Assembly (NCBI GenBank): GCA_001303415.1 | Contig: LJTN01000010.1 | Location: forward strand, 2,140 to 66,139 | Length of the DNA: 64,000 nucleotides | Reading direction: 5' to 3' | From: Myxococcales bacterium SG8_38 | Lineage (GTDB): Bacteria; Myxococcota_A; Polyangia; Polyangiales; Houyiibacteriaceae | The notes under the pieces: generated by a model | Seen by the model: only the letters and a program-made list of their open reading frames with translations | Database searches by the model: none | What the model was told of the DNA's origin: nothing | Shown: piece by piece, positions 4,923-24,820 of the stretch | Numbering within the stretch: position 1 is the stretch's first letter | Layout: each line of letters starts with the position of its first letter | Position numbers and translations under genes: made by a program

Positions 4923-5798
4923 TCAGTACAGGAGCTCGACCCAGCGGCCGCCCGCGGTGAGCTCGGCCTTGCGTCGCGCCCATTTGTCCTCTGAGCCGGC
5001 GATCTCGCTGAACGCCTGATCGAGCTCGTCGCGCATCTTTTCGAGCCCGGCCACGTACACGTAGGTGTTCGGTTGCTCGAGAAGCTTCCATAGCTCCTTT
5101 CCGCGCTGGGAGAGCGCGCCCTCCCAATCGATGGGAGCGGCCCAGGCGGGCCTCGGGCTCAGCGCCTTGAATGCCTGGAAGGTTTCCTTGTCGTAATATT
5201 GTGCAAAGTCGTCCCGTTCGTCATTCATGTAGAGGAGCTCGAGGCCGCTTCGAGCCCCATAGAAGAGCGTGATGGTGCCCTTCCAGTCCGGGACGTTCTT
5301 GTACAGGTGCTTCACGAAGGCCCGGAATGGAGCGATTCCCGTGCCAGTCCCGATGAGGATCAAGTTGGCGTCCATCTCTTCGGGAACGTCGAATGCCAAA
5401 CCGTATGGGCCGGACATGGTGATGCTGTCGCCGGGCGCCAAATCACACAGATAGTTGCTGGCGACGCCCGGATACTCCTCCCCGCTGTACTTGTCGACGT
5501 AGCTCGTGCGGCGAACGACGATCTTGATCCGGGGAAGCCCTGCGGCTTCGCGATCCGGAAGGTCGGCCACGCTGTAAAGACGAAAGTGATGCTCTTGCCC
5601 GAACTCCTTGGCCCCCGGCGCGAGCACGCCGACATTTTGGCCGAGCTCGAGCTCGAAGCCCGGCTTCTCAATTTCCAATGTCAGCTCGCGGACCTCGATA
5701 TCAGACGCTTCCGGCGTGATCCGCTCGCTGGCGACCACGGTGGCCTGGAACCGTCGCCGGGTGTCGTAGTCTTCAAGATGGGTGACTGCAGTATTCAT
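4923..5798 (-). CDS. Ferredoxin-NADP+ reductase, plant/plastidic type
   Basis: RLYSVAD (FAD), GVASNYLC, GTGTGIAPFR (NADP), YVYVAG, C-terminal Tyr. ATGA overlap with the upstream small ORF. Confidence 0.88.
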   Translation of the reverse strand: MNTAVTHLEDYDTRRRFQATVVASERITPEASDIEVRELTLEIEKPGFELELGQNVGVLAPGAKEFGQEHHFRLYSVADLPDREAAGLPRIKIVVRRTSYVDKYSGEEYPGVASNYLCDLAPGDSITMSGPYGLAFDVPEEMDANLILIGTGTGIAPFRAFVKHLYKNVPDWKGTITLFYGARSGLELLYMNDERDDFAQYYDKETFQAFKALSPRPAWAAPIDWEGALSQRGKELWKLLEQPNTYVYVAGLEKMRDELDQAFSEIAGSEDKWARRKAELTAGGRWVELLY

Positions 5799-6010
5799 CG
5801 CATCTCCTCCTCGGCCTCACACGTTCCGCTGTCGGTTCCTTCGTGGCATCGTTGCGAACGGCCGCAATCGCCGCAGCCGGGGCGTCCTGCAAGCGCGTCG
5901 GGGTCATCTCCCGCGTCGGGAAACGATTTCCTCCAGGCGCGTTGCACGCCGACCCATGCTGCGGACAACAGCACGAACGCTCCCACCCCGATGATGTAGT
6001 GGTGCAACAT
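5795..6010 (-). CDS. Small single-TM membrane protein with a 4-Cys C-terminal motif (NqrM-like candidate)
   Basis: 71 aa from ATG 6010, preceded by GGAGG 8 nt upstream. One TM (IIGVGAFVLLSAAWVGV), then GCGDCGRSQRCHEGTDSGTC. Sits between rnfA and the FNR gene with tight junctions. Confidence 0.5.
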   Translation of the reverse strand: MLHHYIIGVGAFVLLSAAWVGVQRAWRKSFPDAGDDPDALAGRPGCGDCGRSQRCHEGTDSGTCEAEEEMR

Positions 6011-6014
6011 CGTC

Positions 6015-6596
6015 CTAACCTCCAAGCCCCCCGAAGCCCATGAAGGTCACCGAAAGCAGCCCGGCGAGCATCAACGCCATCGCCGTGCCCTTCGTCACGT
6101 CTGGCACCTCCGCGAGATCGAGCTTCTCACGCAGGCCGGCCATGAGCACCAGGGCTAGGGTAAACCCGGCTCCTGCGCCAAGCGCGTAGACGATGGACTG
6201 CACGAAGCCATACCCCTTGTTGGTTTGAAAAAGCGCCAACCCGAGGATGGCGCAATTGGTGGTGATGAGGGGCAAGAAGATTCCGAGGGCGCGGAAGAGG
6301 GCCGGGCTGAACTTCTTGATGAACATCTCGACCAGTTGCACCGTAGATGCGATCACGGCGATGAACGAGATGAGCTTGAGGTACGGCGCGTCGATCGCGA
6401 CCAGCAGCGCCTGAATTCCGAAGGCACAGACGGAGCTCACCAGCATGACGAACGTCACCGCGCCCCCCATGCGCGTGGCCGTCTCGAGCTTCGATGAAAC
6501 GCCGAGGAAAGGGCAAATGCCAAGGAAGTACGCCAACACGAAGTTGTTGACGAGTGAGGCGTTGATGAAGATCGACCACAGGGACTCCTGATTCAT
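6015..6596 (-). CDS. rnfA: Rnf electron transport complex subunit A
   Basis: 193 aa polytopic protein of the RnfA/NqrE family (NNFVLAYFLGICPFLG, LPLITTNCAILG). GGAGG SD. Start trimmed from ORF 6015-7382. Confidence 0.93.
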   Translation of the reverse strand: MNQESLWSIFINASLVNNFVLAYFLGICPFLGVSSKLETATRMGGAVTFVMLVSSVCAFGIQALLVAIDAPYLKLISFIAVIASTVQLVEMFIKKFSPALFRALGIFLPLITTNCAILGLALFQTNKGYGFVQSIVYALGAGAGFTLALVLMAGLREKLDLAEVPDVTKGTAMALMLAGLLSVTFMGFGGLGG

Positions 6597-7249
6597 CGAG
6601 CTGCCTCCTCGGTGAGCGAGAGCGTGGCCGCCCTTTCTCTTTGGGCTTTGCGCTGCTTGATCCAGTTGAAGAGCAGCAGCCAACCGGCCAGCGTGAAGAA
6701 GCCCCCGCTCGGCAGAACCATCACGACCCAATCTTGAAAGGCATCGTGAAACAAGGAAACGCCGAAAAGCGACCCGGCGCCGAATATCTCCCGCACCGCG
6801 CCGATCGAAAAGAGGGCGAAGGCAAATCCGACTCCCATGCCCAGGCCGTCCATGGTGGATCGTGCGATCGTGTTCTTCGAGGCAAAGGCCTCGGCCCGGC
6901 CGAGGATCAGGCAATTGACCACGATGAGGGAGATGAAGGCGCCAAGCGCCTTGTAGAGGTCGAGGCTGATCGCCTGGATCACGTAGTCCACCAGGGTGAC
7001 GAAGGTCGCGATGACCAATATGTAGGTCGCGATGCGTACCTCTTTCGGAATGAAGCTCCTGAGCGATGACACCACCATGTTGGACATCACCAGCACGAAT
7101 GCCGTGGCCAAACCCATGGCCAGCGCGTTTCTCGCCGTGTTGGATACCGCCAAGGCAGGGCACATCCCCAGCACTTGAACGAACACGGGGTTGTCCTTCC
7201 AAAGGCCCTTGATGAACTCGTCCGTGGTGGTCTTGGTGGAGACTGCCAT
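6593..7249 (-). CDS. rnfE: Rnf electron transport complex subunit E
   Basis: 218 aa of the RnfE/NqrD family (NPVFVQVLGMCPALAVS, SLIVVNCLILGRAEAFA). GGGAGG SD. 4-nt overlap with rnfA. Confidence 0.93.
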   Translation of the reverse strand: MAVSTKTTTDEFIKGLWKDNPVFVQVLGMCPALAVSNTARNALAMGLATAFVLVMSNMVVSSLRSFIPKEVRIATYILVIATFVTLVDYVIQAISLDLYKALGAFISLIVVNCLILGRAEAFASKNTIARSTMDGLGMGVGFAFALFSIGAVREIFGAGSLFGVSLFHDAFQDWVVMVLPSGGFFTLAGWLLLFNWIKQRKAQRERAATLSLTEEAAR

Positions 7250-7252
7250 GGT

Positions 7253-7945
7253 CTACTCGCCTCCCTGGAAGTCCTGCAGATTGCGTTGGATGCGTGGAAT
7301 CCATTGCTGGGCGCTTTGGTTCAGGATGTTGGCAATGGCCTCCGAGGAGATCGTGGCGCCCGTGATGCCATCTACCTCCCATGGTTGCGTCTTGTTGCCA
7401 TGCCTGACCGGTACGATGGGATGCGCCAGGGACGATTGGTCTTGCGCCAGCGAGACGTCGAGGCGCTCGAAGTTCTCGAGGAAGCCGGGGTCAGTCTCGA
7501 TCTTGTCGCCGAGCCCCGGCGTTTCCTTGCTCTCGAGCACCTGCGTTCCAATGATGGCTTCGTCGGCAAAGGAGTAGCCGTAGATCAGGCGGATGACGTC
7601 CTGGTAACCCATGCCTTGAGCTTCCACCGCGAGGCCGACGAGCTTCTGGTCATCGTCGTAGCCCGCGTAGACCAGCGGCTCGCCGTCGCCGCCCGCGGCG
7701 CTCCCGTCTACGGGTGCGAAATCGCCGGAGTCGCGGAGGCGAAAGGTGGTACTGGCCGTAGCGTCAGGCAAAACCTGGAAGATGGCGCTCTGCAACGCCT
7801 CTGCCTTGTTGCGCTCGATGACCGGCCGTGTCGCTTGAAACACGCCCACGATGAGGAGACCGCAACAGACACCCACGCCGACCATGGCGCGGTACATGTG
7901 CCAGGTGCTGGTCGGCGCCGGGCTGGCGGGCAACGCTCGGCTCAC
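7253..7945 (-). CDS. rnfG: Rnf electron transport complex subunit G (FMN-binding)
   Basis: N-terminal TM, FMN_bind domain, flavinylation motif GITGATISS. GTG 7945 has AAGGAGG 7 nt upstream and overlaps the rnfD stop (GTGA). Alternative ATG at 7897. Confidence 0.85.
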   Translation of the reverse strand: MSRALPASPAPTSTWHMYRAMVGVGVCCGLLIVGVFQATRPVIERNKAEALQSAIFQVLPDATASTTFRLRDSGDFAPVDGSAAGGDGEPLVYAGYDDDQKLVGLAVEAQGMGYQDVIRLIYGYSFADEAIIGTQVLESKETPGLGDKIETDPGFLENFERLDVSLAQDQSSLAHPIVPVRHGNKTQPWEVDGITGATISSEAIANILNQSAQQWIPRIQRNLQDFQGGE

Positions 7946-8967
7946 GATGCGGCCTCCTTGGTTGCCGTGCCGTAAACCCGCGGCCGGAACCAGCGATCGA
8001 GGTGCGGGGTGACCGCGTTGCCGAGAAGAATGGCGTACATCACGCCCTCCGGAAGGCCGCCCCAGGTCCGGATCACCACGGTCACCACGCCGATCAGCGC
8101 TCCGTAGAGATAGCAACCGATCGAAGTCATGGGCGAGCCCACCATGTCGCTCGCCATGAACATCGCGCCGAGCATCAGCCCTCCCGAGAAGATCATGAAG
8201 ACCGGCGATGCATACCGGGTCGGGTCCACGAGATGGAGGGCGCCGCTCAGCACGAACACCGCGGCGATGATCGAAACCGGGATCCGCCAGTTCATCATGT
8301 TGCGAGCGATGAGATAGAGGCCACCCAAGATGATGAGGATGCTCGAGGTCTCGCCCGCCGAGCCGCTCGTGAAGCCCGTGGCGAGGTCAGCAACGGCGGT
8401 GGTTTCTCGGCTGAACTTCCACAGCGCGAGCGGGGTGGCGCTGGTGACGGCGTCGACCGTCGGCTCGGTGAAGGGCAAGGTCAAGGTGGACGACGGCAAC
8501 GAGGTGAAACGACCCGCGGTAAAACCAGCGATCCATGTGGTCATGGCCACGGGAAAAGCCGCCTGGAGCACGGCACGGCCCACCAACGCGGGATTGAACG
8601 TGTTGTAGCCCAAGCCGCCGAACAAGGCCTTGCCCATGGCCACGCAGATGACGCCTCCGACGGCAACCATCCACAGTGGAAGGCTCGGTGGAAGCGTGAG
8701 GCCGTAGAGGAGTCCGGTGATCGTCACCGACCAGTCTCCGATGGTGGTGGGCTTGCCCGTTGCGCGGCAGATGAGGTGCTCGGTCAACACGCACGATACC
8801 AGCGCCATCGAGAGCGTCAGCAGGCCGGCGAGACCGAACGCAAAGATGGCGAACGCCGTGACGGGAAGCAGCGCGAGCACCACGTTGAACATGATGCTGT
8901 CCACGCTGTAGCCGCTCAGGATGTGTGGCGAGGTGCGGATCTCGAGTGTTTTGCCCGGCGCCGGCAT
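7942..8967 (-). CDS. rnfD: Rnf electron transport complex subunit D
   Basis: 341 aa polytopic protein of the RnfD/NqrB family (TSPHI, NPALVGRA, VDAVTSATPL flavin site, FMASDMV). ATG 8967 overlaps the rnfC stop. Trimmed from ORF 7942-9813. Confidence 0.93.
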   Translation of the reverse strand: MPAPGKTLEIRTSPHILSGYSVDSIMFNVVLALLPVTAFAIFAFGLAGLLTLSMALVSCVLTEHLICRATGKPTTIGDWSVTITGLLYGLTLPPSLPLWMVAVGGVICVAMGKALFGGLGYNTFNPALVGRAVLQAAFPVAMTTWIAGFTAGRFTSLPSSTLTLPFTEPTVDAVTSATPLALWKFSRETTAVADLATGFTSGSAGETSSILIILGGLYLIARNMMNWRIPVSIIAAVFVLSGALHLVDPTRYASPVFMIFSGGLMLGAMFMASDMVGSPMTSIGCYLYGALIGVVTVVIRTWGGLPEGVMYAILLGNAVTPHLDRWFRPRVYGTATKEAAS

Positions 8968-9983
8968 CAGGTGGCTCCCGTCTTGCCGGCCGCCGCCTTG
9001 CGCACTGCGGCCTTCGCGGCACGGAACTGCTGCACCAGCGGGATGTGCGAGGGACAGACGAAAGAGCAGGAGCCGCATTCGAAGCAATCCATCAGGTTGT
9101 GTCGCTCGGCCATGACCGAGAACTCTTGGTTGGCTGCCAGCCTGCCTAGAAGCGAGGGGTCGAGGAAGATGGGACAGGCGTCGACGCAGTAGCCGCAGCG
9201 GATGCAGGGGTAGACCGGGCTGTGGGTTCGCTCCGCGGCGGAGTCGGTGAAAGCGGTGACGCCCGACGTGCCCTTGGTGATCGAGATGTCCAGGCTGGAG
9301 GCGGCTCCCCCCATCATCGGTCCACCGAGGAACACACGGTTCACGTCTTCTTCGACCCCCACGTGCTCGAGCAGGAACCGGAGCGGCGTGCCGATGGGGA
9401 TGCGGTAGTTGCCTTTCCGCTTCACGGCAGGCCCTGTCACGGTGATCACCCGCTCCTGGATGCCGCGGCCCAACGGAAGGAGGCGGCCGATCTCTGCGGT
9501 CGTGGCCACGTTGCAACACAGCGCATGAATGTCCAGAGGTAGCCCCCCGGAAGGCACCTCCCGGCCGAGAAGCGCTGCGAACAGCATCTTTTCGGCCCCT
9601 TGAGGGTACTTCACTCGAAGGAGCTCCACCGACCCGTTCAGGTCGCCTGGGAACGTGGCGCGCAGATGCTCCGCTGCATCGGCCTTGTTTGCTTCGACGG
9701 CGATGATGACCTTCTCTGCGCCTGACACTTTGAGTAGGTAGCGGATGCCCACGAAGATGTCGTCGCTTTGCTCGAGCATCACTCTGTGATCGGTCGTGAG
9801 GAACGGCTCGCATTCCGCGCCGTTGATGATGAGCGTGTCGACGAACTTGCCTTCGGGAACTTTGAGCTTGACGTGTGTTGGAAAGGCGGCGCCGCCGAGC
9901 CCCACCACGCCGGCCTCTTGAATCGCAGCGATGATCTCATCGGGCGTCGACGTATCGAGCGGGCAGGGGGTGCCGTCCTCCAC
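8967..9983 (-). CDS. rnfC: RnfC C-terminal module (NADH/FMN-binding fold plus 2x[4Fe-4S]); fragment downstream of in-frame stops
   Basis: GLGGAAFPTHVKL, INGAECEPFLT, CIRCGYCVDACP, CFECGSCSFVCP. The only possible start is GTG 9983, which has no nearby SD. Confidence 0.8.
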   Translation of the reverse strand: MEDGTPCPLDTSTPDEIIAAIQEAGVVGLGGAAFPTHVKLKVPEGKFVDTLIINGAECEPFLTTDHRVMLEQSDDIFVGIRYLLKVSGAEKVIIAVEANKADAAEHLRATFPGDLNGSVELLRVKYPQGAEKMLFAALLGREVPSGGLPLDIHALCCNVATTAEIGRLLPLGRGIQERVITVTGPAVKRKGNYRIPIGTPLRFLLEHVGVEEDVNRVFLGGPMMGGAASSLDISITKGTSGVTAFTDSAAERTHSPVYPCIRCGYCVDACPIFLDPSLLGRLAANQEFSVMAERHNLMDCFECGSCSFVCPSHIPLVQQFRAAKAAVRKAAAGKTGAT

Positions 9984-10013
9984 TTCTTGTGTGGATCCCG
10001 GGAGGGGCTCCTA

Positions 10014-10316
10014 TTACACGGCCGGCACCATGCGGCCGCTGATGCTGGGAGCAAGCGCGATCTTCCGAACGATGCCCGAAGCCGAAGCGTGCATGGAGAC
10101 CGACATGAAGCCGTCCGGGCGCGCAATCCGTTGGCCTCGCCACACCTCTTGGCCTTCTTCCACCACGGGTATCGACGGCGCCCCCATGTGTTGGACCAGG
10201 GGAATGATCAGAAGCGGTGCGAAGGGAAATTGGCGAATGGGCAGCCCACTCGTCTCGTCCTTCGACTCCGGCGGGTGCACCCCATGCCGGAACGTCTTCA
10301 TCCCCAAGAGTCTCAT
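10014..10316 (-). CDS. rnfC: RnfC N-terminal barrel-sandwich domain fragment, ending at TAA-TAG
   Basis: FRHGVHPPESKDET, IIPLVQHMGAPSIPVV, GQRIARPDGFMSVSMHASASG match the RnfC/RsxC N-terminus. Same frame as 8967-9983. Confidence 0.75.
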   Translation of the reverse strand: MRLLGMKTFRHGVHPPESKDETSGLPIRQFPFAPLLIIPLVQHMGAPSIPVVEEGQEVWRGQRIARPDGFMSVSMHASASGIVRKIALAPSISGRMVPAV

Positions 10317-10338
10317 CGGTTTGGTCCGAGGTCGTTTC

Positions 10339-15354: not shown

Positions 15355-15385
15355 CGAAATCACCAATCAGGCTCTCGCCTCTTGA

Positions 15386-16252
15386 CTAGGTCGGGGCGTC
15401 GCGAAGCGTGCCCTTACGAATGATCTTCTTGGCTGCCGGCCCCTTCACCGGCCCAACCTTGGCATCGATCCAGACGATAGCCCCTGTGGGGCATCGTTCA
15501 ATTGGAGCGCGGGTCTGATGTGGCCTGCTGTAGTCCACCACCGGAAGGTTGTTCCGGATGGTCACGAGCCCCGGGGGCGCGTCCATCTCGCAGCGGCCGC
15601 AGGCGGTGCAAGCGACCTCGCAGTCTTCAAGGATGTCGTCGCCGGCTTCGAGAGAGCTACAGGCGACCCATAATCGATGACTCTGCTTGTGGAGGGAAAA
15701 CAGGTCCTTCGGGCATGCCTCGACGCAGTCCCCGCACGCGGTGCACTTGGCCTCGTCGACGACCGGAAGGTCGTGCGCGTTCATGTGGATGGCATCGAAG
15801 TCGCAGACTTCGTAGCAGTCTCCGAAACCGAGGCAGCCCCAGAAGCAGCCTTTGCCACCGCCGGCCACCCGAGCAGCTGCGCCGCAGCTCTGCTCCCCGT
15901 GGTATGTGGCGTGGTTACGGGCGACGTTCGTGCCTCCCGCGCAGGCGAGCCGAGCCACCAGCTTCTCCTCTGCGCCGACGTCGACGCCCAAGAATCTCGC
16001 GAGCTCTGATCTCTCCTCGTCGGAGCTCACCGTGCACTTTCCCGGTAGCGCGTCGCCCCGGATCAGGGCTTCGGCGAACGGGCGGCACCCGGGGAAACCG
16101 CATGCGCCGCAGTTGGCGTGGGGAAGCATGTCCTCCACCACGTCGATTCGCGGGTCCTCGTAGACGTGGAGCTTCTTGTTCGCCAGGACCAACGCCGTGG
16201 CCAGGATGATTGTGAGTCCGCTGAGGGCGGCAACCGCCGTTAGAAACAGCAT
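15386..16252 (-). CDS. rnfB: Rnf electron transport complex subunit B (polyferredoxin)
   Basis: N-terminal TM (MLFLTAVAALSGLTIIL), CGACGFPGCRPFAEA Fe-S domain, then CTACGDCVEACP and CTACGRC ferredoxin motifs. Trimmed from ORF 15386-16495. Confidence 0.85.
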   Translation of the reverse strand: MLFLTAVAALSGLTIILATALVLANKKLHVYEDPRIDVVEDMLPHANCGACGFPGCRPFAEALIRGDALPGKCTVSSDEERSELARFLGVDVGAEEKLVARLACAGGTNVARNHATYHGEQSCGAAARVAGGGKGCFWGCLGFGDCYEVCDFDAIHMNAHDLPVVDEAKCTACGDCVEACPKDLFSLHKQSHRLWVACSSLEAGDDILEDCEVACTACGRCEMDAPPGLVTIRNNLPVVDYSRPHQTRAPIERCPTGAIVWIDAKVGPVKGPAAKKIIRKGTLRDAPT

Positions 16253-16257
16253 GAGAG

Positions 16258-17739
16258 TCAGTTTTGTGGTTCGATGCCGGTCAAGCGTGCAACGAGCTTG
16301 CGCACCGCGGAGGCCACCGCAGCACGCTCGCGGCTCGTCGCGTCCTTCTCCATGTTCTGCCGCAGGCTTTCGATCTGTGCGTCTCGCTCGGCGCCGAGCT
16401 CCCTCTGCAGCGTCGTCCGGGTGGTGTTCACGTGAGGATTGTCGATTCCCGAGATCTCCCGGAGCGTCTGCCACAGATGGAGGCGCTCCGCACACTGTGC
16501 CGCGAGCTTACGGGAAACGACCTTGCGAACGATGGTCCCCTCCTCGGCGGCAAGCGAGATGAAGGGGAGCTTGCCCACCTGCTGGTGTCGCGAGAGCCTG
16601 AGAAAGTCAACCAATGGAACGAGCGTGTCGGTGCGCTCCGGCGGGTCGGCGAGCTCCGTGGCGAGCTCGGGCTCGGAGGCGGCGAAGTGCGCCAACGTGA
16701 AGGGCTCATCGACTTCGACAGGCTCTCCCTGAGAATCACGGCCGGTGAGCTTGTCCGTGGTCCAAAGGACATCCACCGAAGGATTCGAGGAGAGATCGAA
16801 GCACATGACGAATCGGTCGTCGCGATCGGGATCGTACACGCACATCGGAACGGCTCGGGCACGGACGGCCCGCTCCGCGCGTGTTTGAAATGCATTCTCC
16901 GCTTCGCCGTGCCGCGGGCAAAACACCGAAATCACGCCCGGCCGCGGAACGGTCAGCGCCTGGGAGAGCTGCGCCTGAAAGCCAGATGCGGCCGAATGGG
17001 TCTGAAGTAAGTAGACGCCGCGCATGGCCAGGGGCAGCGTTTCGATGGTCATCCTCGAGGGCACGGCGGTGCCTCCGGCTCCCGATGCTGCCTCGCACAC
17101 GCTCGACCGGAGCGCGAGGACCTTGATTGGCATGCCAGTTTCGAGCAGCGCCATGACACTGCGCAGCCGCGCGCCGTCGCAGCCATCCAGGCGCGCGATC
17201 ACCAGAAACGGAGGACAGGCTCGAAGCTCCCCGGGCCCCAGCTGCCGCCAGTCGAAGTCGGCAAAGCCCGCATCGTGGACTTGGGTATCGTACTTGGCGC
17301 GGATCTCCAGTTGGGCGATCCGCACGGCCCGAAAAACCTGGGCCAGCTGGTTGAAGTGCGCCTCGGCGCGCTCATGAATTTCACCATGGTTCGTGTCGAG
17401 CTCGATGAGGGCGCGATCGAGGGGAACGTCCGGCCACGCCTCCTTCAGCTCAACGAGCTTCGGAATGAGCTCTCGCACGCGTACGAGCCGCTCGGGCGGC
17501 ATCGCCCGGGAGCGCGTGCTCTTTCCGAGCACCTGGGACAACGAATCGACATCGAGGCTCGCGGCAGCAAGAGGCCCGAGCGCGCTCTGCAAGCGGTCCG
17601 GCTCGTGACCGTGGCGATGGTACTCGTCGAGGCGGAGCAGGTTTTCGAGCCCGTCGACGGTTTCGGCCAGAGTTTCGCCAAGGGCGGCGCAATGGCGGCG
17701 CCAGACATCTGCGGCGGGTTGGAGGATCTGCTCTTTCAT
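16258..17739 (-). CDS. PFOR domain VI/VII-like protein lacking TPP and Fe-S motifs (hypothetical)
   Basis: 493 aa, colinear with residues ~1030-1508 of the adjacent PFOR (FRAVRIAQLEIRAKY vs FKAIRIAELELQSKY; FADFDWRQL vs FTYFDWRQF; MPIKVLAL vs KPIKVLVV; LVPLVDFL vs MVPLAEFL). GGDG...NTGGQ is replaced by ARLDGCDG...SSV. Confidence 0.75.
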   Translation of the reverse strand: MKEQILQPAADVWRRHCAALGETLAETVDGLENLLRLDEYHRHGHEPDRLQSALGPLAAASLDVDSLSQVLGKSTRSRAMPPERLVRVRELIPKLVELKEAWPDVPLDRALIELDTNHGEIHERAEAHFNQLAQVFRAVRIAQLEIRAKYDTQVHDAGFADFDWRQLGPGELRACPPFLVIARLDGCDGARLRSVMALLETGMPIKVLALRSSVCEAASGAGGTAVPSRMTIETLPLAMRGVYLLQTHSAASGFQAQLSQALTVPRPGVISVFCPRHGEAENAFQTRAERAVRARAVPMCVYDPDRDDRFVMCFDLSSNPSVDVLWTTDKLTGRDSQGEPVEVDEPFTLAHFAASEPELATELADPPERTDTLVPLVDFLRLSRHQQVGKLPFISLAAEEGTIVRKVVSRKLAAQCAERLHLWQTLREISGIDNPHVNTTRTTLQRELGAERDAQIESLRQNMEKDATSRERAAVASAVRKLVARLTGIEPQN

Positions 17740-17752
17740 GGCTGGACGTGGG

Positions 17753-18712
17753 TCAGGTGACGGTGTAACGGTCCATCTCGGCCTCCAGACGCCGAAGGAA
17801 GGTCTGATGGTCCGGTCGATCCTGGCGTTGCCATCGGATCTCTTCGTAGGCGGGGACGTCGGGGTTCTGATACACGAGACCCATGGGGGCCGGGTCCGCG
17901 GTGACCGCCACCCGCTGCGCCTCGTTGATATCGCGATGATCGTGGGCTTGCACGGCGCCGCGCTTGCGGAGCAAAGGGTGGATGGGGATACCATCCGCGT
18001 GCTCGAGGAACACCACCGGAAAGTTCAAGCCGCCCTCGCCAAAGGCCTTGGGCATGAACACCGGGCAACGCTGGAGGATGCGGACGAAGGAAAGCCCGTG
18101 ATGGTCCCACGCCTTGTCGATCGTCTCGTCGAGATGCGCGGGCAGCCAGGTGGCGGTCTGGGCCACGAAGGAAATGTTGGTCATGCCCATCACGGCGCTG
18201 AGCGGATTCAACGGGTGAAGATAGGTGCCTCTCGGGGTGGTGTTGGTCTTCCATCCGTCCGGCGTCGTGGGCGATGCCTGCATTTTGGTCAGCGCATAAA
18301 CTTCGTTGTCCAGCACCAACACCACGGCGTTGATGTTGTAGCGGATGGCGTGCAACCAATGGTTGCCGCCGATGCTGAAACAGTCGCCGTCGCCCATGAT
18401 CACGATGACGGGGAGCTCAGGACGCGAGAGGCGGACGCCGGTGGCGATGGGCAGAGCGCGGCCGTGGATTCCGTGGAACCCGTAGGTCTTCAAATAGTGG
18501 GGCAGGCGGCTCGAGCAGCCGATGCCGGACACCGAAACGACGTTTTCCGGATCGACGTTGTTCTTTCGTAGCACGCGTTGGAGCGCTGCCAGCACACCGT
18601 GGTCGCCGCAGCCCTTGCACCAGCGGGGCGGCTCGGCTTCGTAGTCTTCGAGGGAATGCGTCTCGATCGCGCACACCTCGAGAAGGCTTTCCTCGGCAAG
18701 CATGGATACCAT
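17753..18712 (-). CDS. korB: 2-oxoacid:ferredoxin oxidoreductase beta subunit
   Basis: WCKGCGDHG, GIGCSSR, IVIMGDGDCFSIGGNH...LDNEVYALTK (TPP motif). GAGGGAG SD. ATGA overlap with korA. Confidence 0.9.
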   Translation of the reverse strand: MVSMLAEESLLEVCAIETHSLEDYEAEPPRWCKGCGDHGVLAALQRVLRKNNVDPENVVSVSGIGCSSRLPHYLKTYGFHGIHGRALPIATGVRLSRPELPVIVIMGDGDCFSIGGNHWLHAIRYNINAVVLVLDNEVYALTKMQASPTTPDGWKTNTTPRGTYLHPLNPLSAVMGMTNISFVAQTATWLPAHLDETIDKAWDHHGLSFVRILQRCPVFMPKAFGEGGLNFPVVFLEHADGIPIHPLLRKRGAVQAHDHRDINEAQRVAVTADPAPMGLVYQNPDVPAYEEIRWQRQDRPDHQTFLRRLEAEMDRYTVT

Positions 18713-20619
18713 CAGTTCACTCCCTCGTTTGCGGCGCGCGCGGGGCCCGGAGCTGCCAGGGCCGGCTGAACGTCAAGGACGCGTTTGATTTCGTCTAGGA
18801 TCTCCACCGGCATATAGGGGCGTCCGGGAACCTTGGCGAAGCAATCGACGTCGATCAAAGTCGCCGCGCGCAAAAGCCAGGCCAATTGGCCGTAGCGGCG
18901 GTTTTCTTCCGTGATGAGAGGGTCGCTCCAGTCGTCGCTGTAGTTGAGCTCCACGGTGGTGACTCGCCGAAATCTCCGGAAGATGTTCTTGAGGCCAGGA
19001 GGCAGGGGGCTCAAAAACTGAATGTGGACCGAGGAAACTGCGAGGCCCTCGGCACGCGCCATGTCCACGGCTTCTTCGACCGCACCCCGAGTGCTTCCCC
19101 AACCCACTAGCAGAAGGTCGCCCTCCGAGGCTCCGTGTACGGTCGGCGGCTTGAGGCTCTGCTGCAGGGTGGCGAGCTTCCGGCTGCGCATGGCATGGCC
19201 GCGCTCGTTCCGCTCGGAGTCGTAGCAAGCCTTGCCGTCGCGATCGTGGTTGAGTGACGTCGTCACGCCCATTCCGCCCGGCTGGCCGGGAATGAGGCGT
19301 TGCGAAAGCCCCGTGGTTGGATCCCAGTCATAAGGAAGCGTTCCGAGGGGGACCGGGCTGAGGTCGAGCGGGGGACGCGGTGGGGTTTTCGAGACATCGG
19401 GACGATCGAAGAGCTGCTGACCAGTGGCGAGATTGGCGTCGGAAAGAACGATCACCAACATTCGGAGCTCCTCCGCGATCTTCCGCGCAACGGACAAGAT
19501 GTAGTAGCACTCTTCGACGGTGCTCGGTGCGATGACCACCTTGGGTGCATCGCCGGGCGCCCCGTAGAGCGCGTGGAGCAGATCCGATTGCTCGATCTTC
19601 GTGGGCAACCCGGTGCTGGGCCCGCCTCTCTGCACATCGACGATGACCAGTGGTGTCTCGGTCATCACCGCCAGGCCCTGGAACTCCGTCTTTAGGGCCA
19701 TACCAGGCCCCGAGGTGATGGTCAGGGCGGTCTTACCGGCGTAGGACGCGCCCAAGGCCACGCCGATCGCGGCGATCTCGTCTTCGGCCTGATGCACGAA
19801 TCCGCCGAAGTCTTCGAAGATCTCGGATAAGGAGTGCGAAGCCGAAGTCGCCGGGGTGATCGGGTACATGGAACAGAGCTCGAACCCAGCGGAGATGGCG
19901 CCAAGGGCGAGCGCGGTATTGCCGTTCATCGCGACTTTCGGCACTTCGCTCTGCGAGGAAGGGATTTCGAAGCACTCCTCGAGGTGGGCCATTCCGTATT
20001 GATGACCGGCGGCCGCAAGCTTTACCGCGACCTCCACGACCTGCTGAGTCTTGTCTTTGAAGATGCCGCGTATCACCTCGTCGAGCACGTTCGGGTCTTT
20101 GCTGTAGAGGGCGCATAGAAGGCCCACCGCAAACATGTTCTTCCCGCGTTGCGCGTCTTCGACGTGACGAAGGGTCTCCTTTTCCAAGGGCACTTCAATG
20201 ATCTTCGCCGCTCCGGAGCGGAATCGGTCGAGCACCTCGCGATAAGATCGTCGATACTGCTCCATCTCGTGGGTCGCCCATTGATCGTCGATCAGCACGA
20301 GAACGTCATCGGCCAGACTATTTGCCTCGAGACGCGAGAGCAGCGCCATCTCGTTGAAAGCCAGCACCACGTTCGCACGGTTGCCCGCATTGGTGACCCG
20401 GCTTCGCTCGGCAAGGCGGATTCGATTGCCGCTCGCGCTTCCGGTGGTGTGGGGTGGAGGTCGAATCTCGGACGGAATGATCTCCACGGTCCAAAGACCG
20501 TTCCCCGCCTTGGCGCAGAGTTGGGCAAAAGCGACGGCTGCTTTCTGGGCGCCTTCGCCGGCGTCACTGACGATCTCGAGTGTGTGCTCTGGGAGGCGGA
20601 TTCGGCGCGGGCCGGGCAT
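18712..20619 (-). CDS. korA: 2-oxoacid:ferredoxin oxidoreductase alpha subunit (gamma-alpha fused)
   Basis: N-terminal POR gamma domain (GEGAQKAA), then alpha/Pyr domain (MYPITPATS, QAEDEIAAIG, SGPGMALK). ATG 20619 is preceded by GGAGGA. Trimmed from ORF 18712-20673. Confidence 0.9.
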   Translation of the reverse strand: MPGPRRIRLPEHTLEIVSDAGEGAQKAAVAFAQLCAKAGNGLWTVEIIPSEIRPPPHTTGSASGNRIRLAERSRVTNAGNRANVVLAFNEMALLSRLEANSLADDVLVLIDDQWATHEMEQYRRSYREVLDRFRSGAAKIIEVPLEKETLRHVEDAQRGKNMFAVGLLCALYSKDPNVLDEVIRGIFKDKTQQVVEVAVKLAAAGHQYGMAHLEECFEIPSSQSEVPKVAMNGNTALALGAISAGFELCSMYPITPATSASHSLSEIFEDFGGFVHQAEDEIAAIGVALGASYAGKTALTITSGPGMALKTEFQGLAVMTETPLVIVDVQRGGPSTGLPTKIEQSDLLHALYGAPGDAPKVVIAPSTVEECYYILSVARKIAEELRMLVIVLSDANLATGQQLFDRPDVSKTPPRPPLDLSPVPLGTLPYDWDPTTGLSQRLIPGQPGGMGVTTSLNHDRDGKACYDSERNERGHAMRSRKLATLQQSLKPPTVHGASEGDLLLVGWGSTRGAVEEAVDMARAEGLAVSSVHIQFLSPLPPGLKNIFRRFRRVTTVELNYSDDWSDPLITEENRRYGQLAWLLRAATLIDVDCFAKVPGRPYMPVEILDEIKRVLDVQPALAAPGPARAANEGVN

Positions 20620-20879
20620 GGGCTTCCTCCGATTGGTGGGAGAGCATGTATCACGAGCGTGCCGGGGTCCCAAGCCGGGCGCTCCCCGCGCCTCCGGCCG
20701 GGACGCGCGGCGGAGCCCTCACACATGGGGATGATGGACCCCCGTTGGTTGTGAGGCCGATGACATCAGCGGCCCTCTCGACGAAGGAAGCCGTCGCTTT
20801 TGTGCTGCGTAGTTTTCGGTTTTGCGAGAGCATCGGACCTTCCCCCATTCATCGCCGAGCAAGTGCCCCGGTCAGACAG

Positions 20880-21365
20880 ATGAGCAGCAACCTCCTCACC
20901 TCGCGTTCCAAGAGAGCATCGATGGCCCTGCTCGCCTCGTTCCTGCTGGGGGCCTTCTCCGTGACTGCGCATGCAGGCGGCCCCGAGCCCGAAGAGCCAG
21001 GGCCCATCGTGCTCGCGCAAGCCGACCGCATCCTCGGGCATTGGCAGCGAGGGCAGGGCGAGGCGATCATCGAGGTCAAGCGCGACGCGGGAGTCTATCG
21101 CGGCGTGATCGTCTGGAGTCAGCGCCGCCCTGAGGCGGTCGGCACCGAGGTGTTCCGGGAGCTTCGCTACGATCCGCGGAAGCAAGCCTGGGAGGGCCGA
21201 GCCTATTCCATCGATCGCGGGCGCGAAGTGCGCATCGACATCGTGGCCCCCGGGCGCGACGAGCTGGAGCTCACGGCCCATGTGCTGATCTTCAAGCGTC
21301 GCGTGGGCTTCAAGCGCGTACCCAGCTCGGAGGCAGCCGCTCGCCGAACCGAGCAGGGGCTTTGA
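20880..21365 (+). CDS. Secreted DUF2147-like protein
   Basis: Signal peptide (MALLASFLLGAFSVTAHA) and the pattern GHWQ...IIEVKRDAGVYRGVIVW...WEGRAYSIDRG typical of DUF2147. Start chosen at ATG 20880. Confidence 0.6.
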   Translation: MSSNLLTSRSKRASMALLASFLLGAFSVTAHAGGPEPEEPGPIVLAQADRILGHWQRGQGEAIIEVKRDAGVYRGVIVWSQRRPEAVGTEVFRELRYDPRKQAWEGRAYSIDRGREVRIDIVAPGRDELELTAHVLIFKRRVGFKRVPSSEAAARRTEQGL

Positions 21366-21462
21366 CCCTGCCTCGGGGGAAAGGCGCTCGGGCCGACCCG
21401 GTCCGGACGATTTGGGGGGCGCCATCCGAAACCGCTATCCTGATCTCACGGGGGACCTCGAG

Positions 21463-24642: not shown

Positions 24643-24820
24643 GGCGCGGAAGACTATCACGGGTCTGAGGACCTGGGCGGGGCTAAATCGCAGTCGCAGC
24701 GGACGCTTGCCGAGTCGCCGTGAACCGCCGCCAGATCGGCGGGGCAGTCTGCGCGCGAGCAAGTGACAAGGGCGCACCACGTGAATAGGCTACGGCCAGG
24801 CTTGTCGGAGGTGTTTCGTG

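What the first reader, a model, noticed from the sequence alone, without database searches (positions are those of the whole stretch)
4923..20619. One-strand ferredoxin hub: korAB, PFOR-like pseudo-subunit, rnfB, giant PFOR::ferredoxin, rnfCDGEA, 4-Cys peptide and FNR
Seen: twelve co-directional minus-strand genes run from 20619 to 4923. Junctions range from a 4-nt overlap to a 31-nt gap. korA/korB, rnfC/rnfD, rnfD/rnfG, rnfE/rnfA and small ORF/FNR overlap, and many genes carry strong SDs (AAGGAGG, GGGAGG, GGAGG). Established: pyruvate:ferredoxin oxidoreductase (PFOR) and 2-oxoacid:ferredoxin oxidoreductases reduce ferredoxin, or consume it when run in reverse. Rnf couples ferredoxin:NAD+ electron transfer to ion translocation. 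Plant-type ferredoxin-NADP+ reductase (FNR) equilibrates ferredoxin with NADP(H). Inference: all three ferredoxin nodes (2-oxoacids, NAD(H)/ion gradient, NADP(H)) are hard-wired into one apparent transcription unit. The PFOR gene sits between rnfB (the ferredoxin-facing subunit) and rnfC. I do not recall that placement in described rnf operons such as the rnfABCDGE or rnfCDGEAB types. It could run oxidatively (2-oxoacid to ferredoxin to Rnf, conserving energy). It could also run reductively (NADH plus ion gradient to ferredoxin to pyruvate/2-oxoglutarate synthase).
Basis: partly seen in the sequence, partly recalled or inferred. Interest (0 to 1): 0.8.

Follow-up and report, generated by a model that had tools for sequence, protein, structure and literature searches.

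The report
Pyruvate oxidoreductase wired into Rnf operon
A conserved gene block found in many mostly oxygen-respiring bacteria joins an oversized pyruvate-oxidising enzyme carrying its own ferredoxin on a flexible tether to the Rnf membrane ion pump and an NADP reductase, which probably lets these cells conserve energy that ordinary pyruvate dehydrogenase dissipates.

Summary
Twelve co-directional minus-strand genes (20619-4923) encode KorA, KorB, a PFOR-derived pseudo-subunit ("X"), RnfB, a 1671-aa PFOR, RnfCDGEA, a 71-aa Cys-rich membrane protein and a plant-type FNR. Junctions run from a 4-nt overlap to a 31-nt gap.

The linkage is not an accident. Among 80 related loci from at least six phyla, rnfC follows the PFOR in 70 of 72 readable cases. 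rnfCDGEA plus FNR are complete in 56 of 57. All 78 readable PFORs end in a variable low-complexity linker plus a 4-Cys ferredoxin domain.

X follows korAB in every X context I read. Most longer X relatives carry the same tethered ferredoxin. In three such clusters the PFOR lacks it, so there is one arm per cluster.

My best reading is that a tethered ferredoxin carries electrons from 2-oxoacid oxidation to Rnf (NADH plus ion gradient) and to FNR (NADPH). This would be an energy-conserving alternative to pyruvate and 2-oxoglutarate dehydrogenases. Direction and physical coupling are inferred, not shown.

Ten literature searches found no description of this arrangement.

The parts
18712..20619 (-). 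korA: alpha subunit (domains III-I-II) of a two-subunit 2-oxoacid:ferredoxin oxidoreductase
   Evidence: Pfam POR, POR_N and PFOR_II. NCBIfam TIGR03710 scores 508.6 bits against a cut-off of 482.75.
17753..18712 (-). korB: TPP-binding beta subunit
   Evidence: Pfam TPP_enzyme_C and PFO_beta_C. GDG-X-N motif at aa 107 and CxxC at aa 32. The closest solved structures are S. tokodaii OFOR beta (5B46) and M. marinus OGOR beta (6N2N).
16258..17739 (-). X: non-catalytic paralogue of the C-terminal half of the giant PFOR; third gene of the korAB module; short form without a ferredoxin tail
   Evidence: No Pfam or NCBIfam hit. 29% identity to PFOR aa 1183-1520, E 2e-46. The GDG/TPP motif is absent family-wide and an HRHGH motif is conserved. 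The AlphaFold model has pLDDT 87 and its best PDB matches are PFOR and OFOR beta. X follows korAB in L006, L007, L088, L090, L091 and L092.
15386..16252 (-). rnfB: ferredoxin-facing Fe-S subunit of Rnf
   Evidence: Pfam FeS (PF04060) plus 4Fe-4S dicluster domains. NCBIfam TIGR01944 scores 90.3 bits against a cut-off of 68.7.
10339..15354 (-). Giant PFOR (1671 aa): domains I, II, III, V (two CxxCxxCxxxC motifs separated by an insertion of about 125 aa) and VI, then a C-terminal extension, linker and ferredoxin
   Evidence: Pfam POR_N, PFOR_II, POR, Fer4, TPP_enzyme_C and Fer4_13. PDB 6CIN and 1B0P match in five separate stretches. YPITPS, ARA and GDG-N motifs are kept. TIGR02176 scores only 404 bits against a cut-off of 911.
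10588..10746 (-). Low-complexity Ala/Pro/Ser/Thr/Gly-rich linker of the PFOR (aa ~1541-1593 in ORF numbering)
   Evidence: Seen directly in the sequence. In the related PFORs the corresponding segment is variable in sequence and rich in A/P/S/T/G/E/Q. The region from the anchor motif to the first ferredoxin Cys measured 69-96 aa in the 64 that could be measured.
10342..10587 (-). Tethered single-cluster ferredoxin domain of the PFOR (YLAPWIDTEN-CxxCxxC...C)
   Evidence: Pfam Fer4_13. Matches D. africanus ferredoxin I, 1DAX. A tail of about 72 aa, almost always with 4 Cys, is present in all 78 related PFORs.
8967..10316 (-). rnfC (NADH/FMN subunit), interrupted in this strain
   Evidence: Pfam RnfC_N in the 100-aa part; Complex1_51K, SLBB and 2x[4Fe-4S] in the remainder. 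The gene is intact at 449 aa in the 99.87% identical L001.
10011..10016 (-). In-frame double stop TAA TAG inside rnfC
   Evidence: The sister strain reads TAC TTG at this site. Four of the 23 SNPs between the strains fall within 11 nt here. The same allele is present in two Logan assemblies.
7942..8967 (-). rnfD
   Evidence: Pfam NQR2_RnfD_RnfE, E 3e-103. TSAT flavinylation-type motif.
7253..7945 (-). rnfG
   Evidence: Pfam FMN_bind. TGAT motif.
6593..7249 (-). rnfE
   Evidence: Pfam Rnf-Nqr, E 1e-67. Two conserved membrane Cys.
6015..6596 (-). rnfA
   Evidence: Called as an Rnf-Nqr family gene in L001. 75-96% identical across loci.
5795..6010 (-). Small membrane protein (71 aa): one TM helix followed by a cytoplasmic Cys cluster; uncharacterised family
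   Evidence: A Cys-rich ORF of this kind was found between rnfA and FNR in 54 of the 56 loci where that interval could be read. 90 database homologues are all 'hypothetical' with no Pfam domain.
4923..5798 (-). Plant-type ferredoxin-NADP+ reductase
   Evidence: Pfam FAD_binding_6 and NAD_binding_1. Best PDB matches are cyanobacterial and plant FNR, E 5e-38. RLYS and GTGIAP motifs and a C-terminal Tyr.
20648..20653 (-). Candidate -10-like element (TGATAC) about 29 nt upstream of the korA ATG; low confidence
   Evidence: A similar TGATA(A/C)/TGTTAG/TGGTAG element sits at the same place in 4 of 5 related Myxococcota loci. It was not detected by the consensus promoter scan.

Best explanation
The cluster encodes a ferredoxin-centred 2-oxoacid oxidation system built around one covalently tethered ferredoxin.

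Shown:
- The PFOR keeps its catalytic motifs. It ends in a flexible low-complexity linker plus a single-cluster ferredoxin domain.
- It is almost invariably encoded next to a complete Rnf and a plant-type FNR.
- KorAB has a third partner, X, which is a catalytically dead copy of the PFOR C-terminal module.
- In other lineages X carries the ferredoxin arm while the neighbouring PFOR lacks it.

Inferred:
- PFOR (pyruvate) and KorAB-X (2-oxoglutarate or another 2-oxoacid) reduce the tethered ferredoxin.
- The arm delivers electrons to RnfB. Rnf then reduces NAD+ and exports Na+ or H+.
- The arm also delivers electrons to FNR, which makes NADPH.
- The net chemistry equals that of pyruvate and 2-oxoglutarate dehydrogenases. 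The difference is that the roughly 100-180 mV drop from ferredoxin to NAD+ is conserved as ion-motive force instead of being lost.
- The system is probably used at low oxygen.
- The small Cys-rich membrane protein is an Rnf accessory or maturation factor.

In this particular strain the rnfC double stop probably disables or weakens the Rnf branch. That would leave PFOR::Fd to FNR, a route analogous to pyruvate:NADP+ oxidoreductase.
For: - Family assignments and intact catalytic or cofactor motifs.
- Tight junctions with no intergenic terminators.
- In GTDB species genomes at least 589 loci encode a relative of this PFOR. In the 80 best, rnfC follows the PFOR in 70 of 72, and rnfCDGEA plus FNR are complete in 56 of 57. 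rnfB lies either before the PFOR (31 loci) or after FNR (32 loci).
- Identities to the window co-vary between the cluster genes, r = 0.77-0.97. The cluster appears to move as a unit.
- All 78 related PFORs carry the linker plus a ferredoxin tail of about 72 aa, almost always with 4 Cys.
- In the X family, 29 of 32 proteins of 541-700 aa and 66 of 69 of 701-900 aa carry the same tail, and none has GDG.
- Reciprocity: in L088, L090 and L092 the PFOR stops exactly at the conserved helix before the linker, while X carries the arm.
- L092 has the same order as the window, korA-korB-X-rnfB-PFOR-rnfC-D-G-E.
- L056 has the PFOR followed directly by FNR with no rnf. Pyruvate to NADPH is the thermodynamically downhill direction, which favours an oxidative reading.
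- Four gammaproteobacterial loci share a conserved FNR/Anr-like box, TTGAGC-N3-GATCAA, about 130-140 nt upstream of rnfB. This points to low-oxygen control in that lineage.
- The energetics of ferredoxin:NAD+ coupling by Rnf are established knowledge (reviews PMC5861303, PMC12174285).
Against: - There is no expression, biochemical or interaction data.
- Direction cannot be read from sequence. PFOR, OFOR, Rnf and FNR are all reversible.
- Rnf in characterised aerobes (A. vinelandii, E. coli Rsx) runs in reverse (PMC12174285).
- No FNR/Anr-like box occurs upstream of korA in the window or its Myxococcota relatives.
- korAB-X also occurs without a neighbouring PFOR-rnf cluster (L006, L007), so its coupling to Rnf is not obligatory.
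- rnfC is broken in this strain and truncated in L012, so the Rnf branch is dispensable at least sometimes.
- Substrates of the PFOR and of KorAB are assigned by family only. The PFOR is far below the NCBIfam equivalog cut-off.
Confidence: 0.55

Rival explanations
1. The same hardware runs reductively. Respiration-built ion-motive force drives Rnf backwards (NADH to ferredoxin) and FNR feeds in NADPH. The reduced arm then drives PFOR and KorAB as pyruvate and 2-oxoglutarate synthases. This would give anaplerotic CO2 fixation, or C2 assimilation without a glyoxylate shunt.
For: All four enzyme types are reversible. Rnf works in reverse in aerobes such as A. vinelandii (PMC12174285). The KorB relative from M. 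marinus (6N2N) is a reverse-TCA enzyme. The carriers are mostly respiring organisms able to build a large ion gradient (my own knowledge of the named genera).
Against: L056 pairs the PFOR with FNR alone, without Rnf. Running that pair reductively from NADPH is uphill. The carriers include RuMP methanotrophs and polysaccharide-degrading Bacteroidota that make pyruvate directly from sugars. No other reverse-TCA genes, such as ATP-citrate lyase, were seen in the flanks examined, but those flanks were searched only with the window's own proteins.
Confidence: 0.22
2. The genes are co-located and co-transferred only because they share a soluble ferredoxin pool. There is no physical coupling and no special role for the tether. 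The PFOR C-terminal ferredoxin is an internal wire extension, and X is a stabilising or assembly subunit of KorAB.
For: Functional PFOR to ferredoxin to Rnf coupling through free ferredoxin is well known in anaerobes such as Prevotella (PMC10542786). korAB-X occurs alone in L006 and L007. The position of rnfB varies between loci.
Against: The linker is long, low-complexity and variable in sequence but always present, which is typical of mobile arms. The arm sits on either PFOR or X, never on both, in the four architectures where both proteins could be read in full. No free ferredoxin gene lies within the cluster.
Confidence: 0.15
3. A redox-homeostasis or stress role similar to E. coli Rsx. 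The Rnf-type complex and FNR keep Fe-S proteins or regulators reduced, with PFOR as an auxiliary electron source.
For: Rsx is an Rnf homologue with such a role in an aerobe (PMC12174285). In Methylococcus capsulatus, genes for a putative Rnf complex were among the hits of a CRISPRi screen for CH4-dependent growth (PMC13108547). It is not known whether that is this paralogue.
Against: No regulator target such as SoxR is encoded nearby. The investment in a 1671-aa catabolic enzyme plus KorAB fits central carbon flux better than signalling.
Confidence: 0.05

Closest known systems
Rnf complex (RnfABCDGE; A. woodii, C. tetanomorphum, A. vinelandii), with described gene orders rnfABCDGE, rnfCDGEAB and rnfBCDGEA
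   Same: All six subunits are present, with the expected domains, flavinylation-type motifs and Fe-S motifs. The core order rnfCDGEA, with rnfB either before or after, matches the Bacteroidetes/Chlorobi and Firmicutes types (PMC4014512, PMC3534657).
   Different: A 5-kb PFOR gene sits between rnfB and rnfC, or directly before rnfC. A small Cys-rich membrane protein and a plant-type FNR follow rnfA. None of the papers I found describes this. In this strain rnfC is interrupted.
Homodimeric PFOR (D. africanus 1B0P, M. thermoacetica 6CIN; NCBIfam TIGR02176 nifJ type)
   Same: Domains I, II, III, V and VI are in the same order. YPITPS, the Arg of ARA, GDG-N and two CxxCxxCxxxC motifs are kept.
   Different: It is about 450 aa longer. 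It has insertions after domain II, between the two ferredoxin-type clusters and before the TPP domain, plus a C-terminal extension, a flexible linker and an extra ferredoxin domain. It scores 404 bits against the equivalog cut-off of 911.
Pyruvate:NADP+ oxidoreductase (PNO) of Euglena, Cryptosporidium and Blastocystis (from my own knowledge)
   Same: A PFOR is joined to a carrier domain and an FNR-type NADP+ reductase, so that pyruvate oxidation yields NADPH. L056 shows the bare PFOR::Fd + FNR pair.
   Different: In PNO the partner is a fused flavodoxin-like/FNR-like (P450-reductase-type) module. Here the carrier is a tethered [4Fe-4S] ferredoxin, the FNR is a separate plant-type protein, and Rnf forms a second outlet.
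Two-subunit (alpha-beta)2 2-oxoacid:ferredoxin oxidoreductases (S. tokodaii OFOR 5B46/5B48; M. marinus OGOR 6N2N; mycobacterial KorAB)
   Same: KorA and KorB have the same domain make-up and the closest sequences.
   Different: A conserved third gene, X, follows korAB. In many lineages X brings a tethered ferredoxin. To my knowledge no such subunit is described for this enzyme class.
NADH-dependent phenylglyoxylate dehydrogenase PadEFGHI of Azoarcus/Aromatoleum (from my own knowledge; sub-threshold NCBIfam hits)
   Same: An OFOR-type enzyme is coupled to a pyridine nucleotide through an added FNR-like flavoprotein.
   Different: It has a different substrate, is a soluble five-subunit enzyme, and has no Rnf and no tethered arm.
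NqrM (DUF539) maturation factor of Na+-NQR (architecture recalled from memory; PMC12174285)
   Same: A small protein with one TM helix and a cytoplasmic Cys cluster, encoded at the end of the operon of an Rnf/Nqr-type pump.
   Different: No detectable sequence similarity. No Pfam hit appeared even at E<10 for 26 family members.
Lipoyl 'swinging arms' of 2-oxoacid dehydrogenase E2 subunits (analogy, from my own knowledge)
   Same: An Ala/Pro-rich flexible linker carries a small redox-carrier domain between active sites.
   Different: The carrier here is an Fe-S ferredoxin, not a lipoyl domain. Mobility is inferred from composition only.

Membership tests
Rnf complex (ferredoxin:NAD+ oxidoreductase, ion-translocating) | All six subunits RnfA, B, C, D, E and G are encoded together | tested here: met
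   Pfam and NCBIfam hits for each subunit.
Rnf complex (ferredoxin:NAD+ oxidoreductase, ion-translocating) | Intact RnfC (NADH/FMN-binding subunit) | tested here: not met
   An in-frame TAA TAG lies at 10011-10016 in this strain. The gene is intact in L001 and in 66 of 68 related loci.
Rnf complex (ferredoxin:NAD+ oxidoreductase, ion-translocating) | Covalent-FMN motifs in RnfD and RnfG, conserved Cys pairs in RnfA and RnfE, and 2x[4Fe-4S] in RnfC | tested here: met
   TSAT (RnfD), TGAT (RnfG), Cys28/115 (RnfA), Cys30/113 (RnfE), and two CxxCxxCxxxC motifs in RnfC.
Rnf complex (ferredoxin:NAD+ oxidoreductase, ion-translocating) | Ferredoxin:NAD+ activity coupled to Na+/H+ translocation | not testable with these tools
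   Requires membrane vesicle assays.
Pyruvate:ferredoxin oxidoreductase (homodimeric, nifJ type) | Domain order I-II-III-V-VI with a TPP GDG-N motif and three [4Fe-4S] sites | tested here: met
   Only one of the four ligands of the TPP-proximal cluster (the TGC Cys) was checked explicitly.
Pyruvate:ferredoxin oxidoreductase (homodimeric, nifJ type) | Scores above the curated equivalog cut-off (TIGR02176) | tested here: not met
   403.8 bits against a cut-off of 911.35. This is a divergent clade, and pyruvate as substrate is inferred from the conserved YPITPS Thr and ARA Arg only.
Two-subunit 2-oxoacid:acceptor oxidoreductase (KorAB/OFOR alpha-beta) | Alpha subunit above the TIGR03710 cut-off; beta subunit with TPP motif and CxxC | tested here: met
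   korA scores 508.6 against 482.75. korB has GDG-N and CKGC. However, korB scores 235.3 on TIGR02177, below the 261.9 cut-off.
Two-subunit 2-oxoacid:acceptor oxidoreductase (KorAB/OFOR alpha-beta) | 2-oxoglutarate specificity (implied by the name 'Kor') | not testable with these tools
   The closest structures include both the broad-specificity StOFOR and the 2-oxoglutarate-specific MmOGOR.
Plant-type ferredoxin-NADP+ reductase | FAD_binding_6 and NAD_binding_1 domains, RxYS and GxGxAP motifs, C-terminal aromatic residue | tested here: met
   (RLYS, GTGIAP, terminal ...LLY). Scores are below the cyanobacterial PetH equivalog cut-offs, so this is a separate bacterial branch.
NqrM (DUF539) | Sequence match to PF04400 | tested here: not met
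   No hit for any of 26 family members at E<10. Only the architecture resembles NqrM.
TPP-dependent enzyme (for protein X) | GDG-X(24-30)-N diphosphate/Mg-binding motif | tested here: not met
   The motif is absent in X, in 46 aligned relatives, and in all 150 top profile hits. The fold is nevertheless PFOR domain VI-like.

The most novel reading that the evidence does not exclude
PFOR, KorAB-X, Rnf and FNR form one membrane-docked machine. A single swinging ferredoxin arm, carried by PFOR or by X, shuttles electrons from 2-oxoacid decarboxylation to RnfB and FNR. This would give mostly aerobic bacteria of at least six phyla ion-pumping versions of the pyruvate and 2-oxoglutarate dehydrogenase reactions. 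X would be a new adaptor or arm-carrier subunit of two-subunit OFORs, and the small Cys-rich protein a new Rnf accessory factor.
Probability: 0.3. Interest if true: 0.85.

Novelty: new variant of a known kind. Interest (0 to 1): 0.7.

Why it matters
Rnf is understood mainly in anaerobes, in nitrogen fixers and as E. coli Rsx. What it does in ordinary aerobic heterotrophs and methanotrophs is largely open.

This cluster gives a concrete and testable answer for hundreds of species, including cultured Flavobacteriia, Cytophagia, Pirellulaceae and Methylotuvimicrobium. In this reading a dedicated PFOR with a tethered ferredoxin feeds Rnf and FNR.

If the reading is correct, three things follow:
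- It changes how pyruvate and 2-oxoglutarate oxidation are budgeted energetically in sediment and aquatic bacteria at low oxygen.
- It adds a third subunit class (X, with or without ferredoxin) to the two-subunit OFORs.
- It offers a compact, self-wired module that converts 2-oxoacids to NAD(P)H, of interest for engineering.

Tried and rejected
1. Selenocysteine or read-through in rnfC. Rejected: the stops are TAA TAG, not TGA, and there are two in a row.

2. The double stop as an artefact of one assembly. Unlikely: the window and a Logan contig are identical, a second run gives the same split gene calls, and an ENA contig carries the intact allele.

3. NqrM homology of the small protein. No Pfam hit at E<10 and no NCBIfam hit. 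All 90 database relatives are 'hypothetical'.

4. Internal promoters or terminators. Consensus scans found nothing at any junction. Terminator-like hits lie inside genes and are only weakly above the shuffled expectation.

5. An FNR/CRP-type box upstream of korA in the window and its Myxococcota relatives. None was found with 2 or fewer mismatches in the window. The box was found only in four gammaproteobacterial loci.

6. Riboswitch or other RNA elements. There are no Rfam hits and no tRNAs in the window.

7. Literature. Ten full-text searches plus targeted reading found the three canonical rnf gene orders. They found no description of a PFOR embedded in rnf, of the tethered ferredoxin, or of X. 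Biegel et al. 2011 was not held.

8. Looking up the contig upstream of L088 to find its rnfB.

9. Whether the Cytophagales X-like gene carries a ferredoxin. The loci end too early, and the best database relatives are only about 30% identical.

Full report
**1. Observation**

The minus strand between 20619 and 4923 carries twelve consecutive genes.
- KorA: POR, POR_N and PFOR_II domains. It passes the TIGR03710 cut-off.
- KorB: TPP_enzyme_C.
- A 493-aa protein with no family hit, called X here.
- RnfB.
- A PFOR of 1671 aa, with an additional C-terminal Fer4_13 domain.
- RnfC, RnfD, RnfG, RnfE and RnfA.
- A 71-aa ORF with no family hit.
- A flavoprotein with FAD_binding_6 and NAD_binding_1 domains. 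Its best solved relatives are cyanobacterial and plant ferredoxin-NADP+ reductases, E 5e-38.

Junctions range from 4-nt overlaps to a 31-nt gap. Shine-Dalgarno-like sequences precede eight of the genes. Consensus scans place no promoter-like or terminator-like site at any junction. Cofactor motifs are intact throughout.

The window's source is a Myxococcota lineage. The small protein is identical to one annotated in 'Myxococcales bacterium SG8_38', and the nearest genomes are Myxococcales or 'delta proteobacterium' MAGs.

**2.

The rnfC frame contains TAA TAG at 10011-10016. A Logan contig (SRR29904084) is 100% identical to the window over 13.8 kb and carries the same stops. A second run (SRR29904083) gives the same split gene calls. 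An ENA contig that is 99.87% identical reads TAC TTG at this site and encodes an intact 449-aa RnfC. Four of the 23 differences between the two strains fall within these 11 nt.

rnfC is continuous in 66 of 68 related loci. The interruption is therefore a recent strain-level lesion. The next in-frame start, a GTG ten codons downstream, has no ribosome-binding site, so the Rnf branch is probably impaired in this strain.

A related Myxococcales chromosome (L012) keeps the PFOR. Its rnfC is truncated after about 190 aa, and the rest of rnf is replaced by unrelated genes.

**3. Conservation of the core**

A scan of one genome per GTDB species with the PFOR found at least 589 loci encoding a relative. 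The 80 best are 66-87% identical to the window's PFOR. They come from Myxococcota, Acidobacteriota, Bacteroidota, Planctomycetota, Gammaproteobacteria and Calditrichota. They include cultured Rubripirellula, Algoriphagus, Aquiflexum, Flagellimonas, Seonamhaeicola, Hyunsoonleella, Methylotuvimicrobium and Methylomicrobium.

I mapped the window's proteins onto these loci:
- rnfC directly follows the PFOR in 70 of the 72 loci with readable downstream sequence.
- rnfCDGEA and FNR are both present in 56 of the 57 loci with at least 6.5 kb downstream.
- rnfB lies immediately before the PFOR in 31 loci and after FNR in 32. The second arrangement is typical of Bacteroidota and the methanotrophs.

The small ORF is also conserved. 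It has one TM helix and a motif of the form W..VQ..W...F...D(A/V)LAGR..CGxCGCxxxC. It has no Pfam or NCBIfam match, and every database relative is annotated 'hypothetical'.

Identities to the window co-vary among the cluster genes, r = 0.77-0.97. This is consistent with inheritance and transfer of the cluster as a block.

The exceptions are informative. L056 (Thermoanaerobaculia) has the PFOR followed directly by FNR with no rnf. L031 (Calditrichales) has a second, ordinary rnfCDGEA set next to the PFOR-linked one.

**4. The PFOR**

It aligns with D. africanus and M. thermoacetica PFOR in separate stretches. It retains the substrate and TPP motifs and two CxxCxxCxxxC motifs. It is about 450 aa longer than those enzymes, and it scores only 404 bits against the 911-bit equivalog cut-off of TIGR02176.

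In all 78 related PFORs that could be read, the protein ends in the same way:
- a conserved helix of the form ...EVV..IA.GLM.LAGG;
- a sequence-variable, low-complexity Ala/Pro/Ser/Thr/Gly/Glu-rich stretch;
- a conserved ...YMAPWI(D/E)T motif followed by a ferredoxin domain of about 72 aa, almost always with 4 Cys.

This is the anatomy of a carrier domain on a flexible tether. Mobility itself is inferred from composition only.

**5. Protein X**

Residues 126-439 of X are 29% identical (E 2e-46) to PFOR residues 1183-1520. The alignment extends across the PFOR-specific helical insertion, and X ends exactly where the PFOR linker begins. The GDG/TPP motif is absent from the whole family, and an (E/D)EYHRHGH motif is conserved. 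An AlphaFold model (pLDDT 87, pTM 0.77) finds PFOR and OFOR beta subunits as its best structural matches.

X belongs with KorAB rather than with the PFOR. It follows korAB as a three-gene unit in a planctomycete and in an Opitutaceae genome that have no rnf nearby. A divergent X-like ORF follows korAB downstream of the PFOR-rnf cluster in four Cytophagales loci.

A profile search of 1.84 billion representative proteins gave 2060 hits, 898 of them at E<=1e-30. Among the best 150, sorted by length:
- At most 540 aa (33 proteins): 32 lack a ferredoxin tail.
- 541-700 aa (32 proteins): 29 carry the same linker-plus-ferredoxin tail as the giant PFOR.
- 701-900 aa (69 proteins): 66 carry that tail.

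None of the 150 has GDG.

**6. One arm per cluster**

Three clusters with an arm-bearing X were read in full.
- L088: PFOR (1377 aa) - rnfCDGEA - small ORF - korA - korB - X::Fd (604 aa).
- L090: korA - korB - X::Fd (873 aa) - rnfB - PFOR (1251 aa).
- L092: korA - korB - X::Fd (833 aa) - rnfB - PFOR (1507 aa) - rnfC - rnfD - rnfG - rnfE.

In each of them the PFOR terminates at the conserved helix, with no linker and no ferredoxin. In the window and its close relatives the reverse holds. There the PFOR carries the arm and X is the short form.

L092 has the same gene order as the window, although its X is only about 30% identical. The 12-gene arrangement is therefore not a lineage-specific accident. 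The reciprocal placement of the arm is the strongest sequence-level argument that PFOR, KorAB-X and Rnf use one shared tethered ferredoxin and work close together.

**7. Mechanism (inference)**

PFOR and KorAB-X reduce the tethered ferredoxin. The arm delivers electrons to two outlets:
- RnfB, the established ferredoxin-facing subunit. Rnf then reduces NAD+ while exporting Na+ or H+.
- FNR, which produces NADPH.

The net chemistry equals that of the pyruvate and 2-oxoglutarate dehydrogenases. The difference is that the ferredoxin-to-NAD+ potential drop is conserved (established energetics: PMC5861303, PMC12174285).

Three points favour the oxidative direction:
- L056 pairs the PFOR with FNR alone. 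That pairing is analogous to eukaryotic pyruvate:NADP+ oxidoreductase and is thermodynamically downhill.
- The carriers include sugar- and methane-oxidising organisms that already make pyruvate.
- Four gammaproteobacterial loci share an FNR/Anr-like box, TTGAGC-N3-GATCAA. It stands as an island of conservation about 130-140 nt upstream of rnfB and suggests low-oxygen induction in that lineage.

No such box is present in the Myxococcota. There, only a -10-like TGATA(A/C) element about 29 nt upstream of korA is shared.

The reductive reading remains a serious rival. In it, Rnf runs in reverse and the two enzymes act as pyruvate and 2-oxoglutarate synthases. Nothing in the sequence decides direction.

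**8. Comparison with what is known**

The parts are all members, or divergent members, of known families: Rnf, PFOR, two-subunit OFOR and plant-type FNR.

What appears undescribed:
- the embedding of a PFOR in the rnf operon;
- the tethered ferredoxin;
- the X subunit, with or without its arm;
- the small Cys-rich membrane protein.

Ten full-text searches and targeted reading found only the canonical rnf orders rnfABCDGE, rnfCDGEAB and rnfBCDGEA (PMC4014512, PMC3534657, PMC12174285). They found nothing on this arrangement. Subscription-only literature was not searchable, so prior description cannot be excluded.

**9. Verdict**

It is a widespread, modular 2-oxoacid-ferredoxin-Rnf-FNR system with a swinging ferredoxin. 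In this particular strain it sits with a freshly broken rnfC.

I rate it a new variant of known kinds, with interest 0.7. The functional model rests on inference from anatomy and synteny and needs the experiments listed.

Noticed in passing
window 10004-10014 (rnfC): Four substitutions within 11 nt, relative to a 99.87% identical strain, create TAA TAG and a Phe>Leu change. The other 19 differences between the strains are scattered, and the affected genes remain 99-100% identical at protein level. This looks like a single multi-nucleotide event that knocked out rnfC in one population (SRR29904083 and SRR29904084).
   Followed up: partly
L012:14847-17602 (Myxococcales bin5 chromosome CP070713.1): The PFOR is retained, but rnfC is truncated after about 190 aa and is followed by a FadL-like outer-membrane protein gene. 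No rnfB lies upstream. This is a second, independent loss of the Rnf branch in Myxococcota.
   Followed up: partly
L056:3-5643 (Thermoanaerobaculia MAG): The giant PFOR is followed directly by the plant-type FNR, with no rnf genes in between. This is a minimal pairing analogous to pyruvate:NADP+ oxidoreductase.
   Followed up: partly
L023, L030, L032, L086, about 130-142 nt upstream of rnfB: A conserved TTGAGC-N3-GATCAA box (FNR/Anr-type, one mismatch) and a downstream TTTGACTC box stand out as islands of conservation in otherwise diverged intergenic DNA of four gammaproteobacterial loci.
   Followed up: partly
L031:391-4827 (Calditrichales MAG): A second, more divergent rnfCDGEA set lies a few kb upstream of the rnfB-PFOR-rnfCDGEA-FNR cluster. 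The PFOR-linked Rnf is therefore a specialised paralogue in that genome.
   Followed up: no
window 16258-17739 (X), aa 38-45: The motif (D/E)EYHRHGH is nearly invariant in the X family and absent from the corresponding PFOR segment. It could be a metal-binding or interface site. Its function is unknown.
   Followed up: no
window 10339-16252 and 16258-17739: X, rnfB, PFOR and rnfC lack recognisable Shine-Dalgarno sequences, whereas the other eight genes have strong ones. This may reflect different translation levels or translational coupling.
   Followed up: no
window 2481-4847 (+), 20877-21365 (+), 21412-22812 (+), 22837-24780 (-): The flanking genes appear unrelated to the cluster. They are a convergent FtsX-type ABC permease, a divergent DUF2147 secreted protein, a Cys-rich VWA-domain protein and a pectinacetylesterase-like protein.
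   Followed up: no
L068:14938-16167 (Saprospiraceae MAG): A gap of about 1.2 kb separates the PFOR from rnfC, and the rnfC region contains an in-frame stop. This may be an insertion or decay. I did not examine it further.
   Followed up: no
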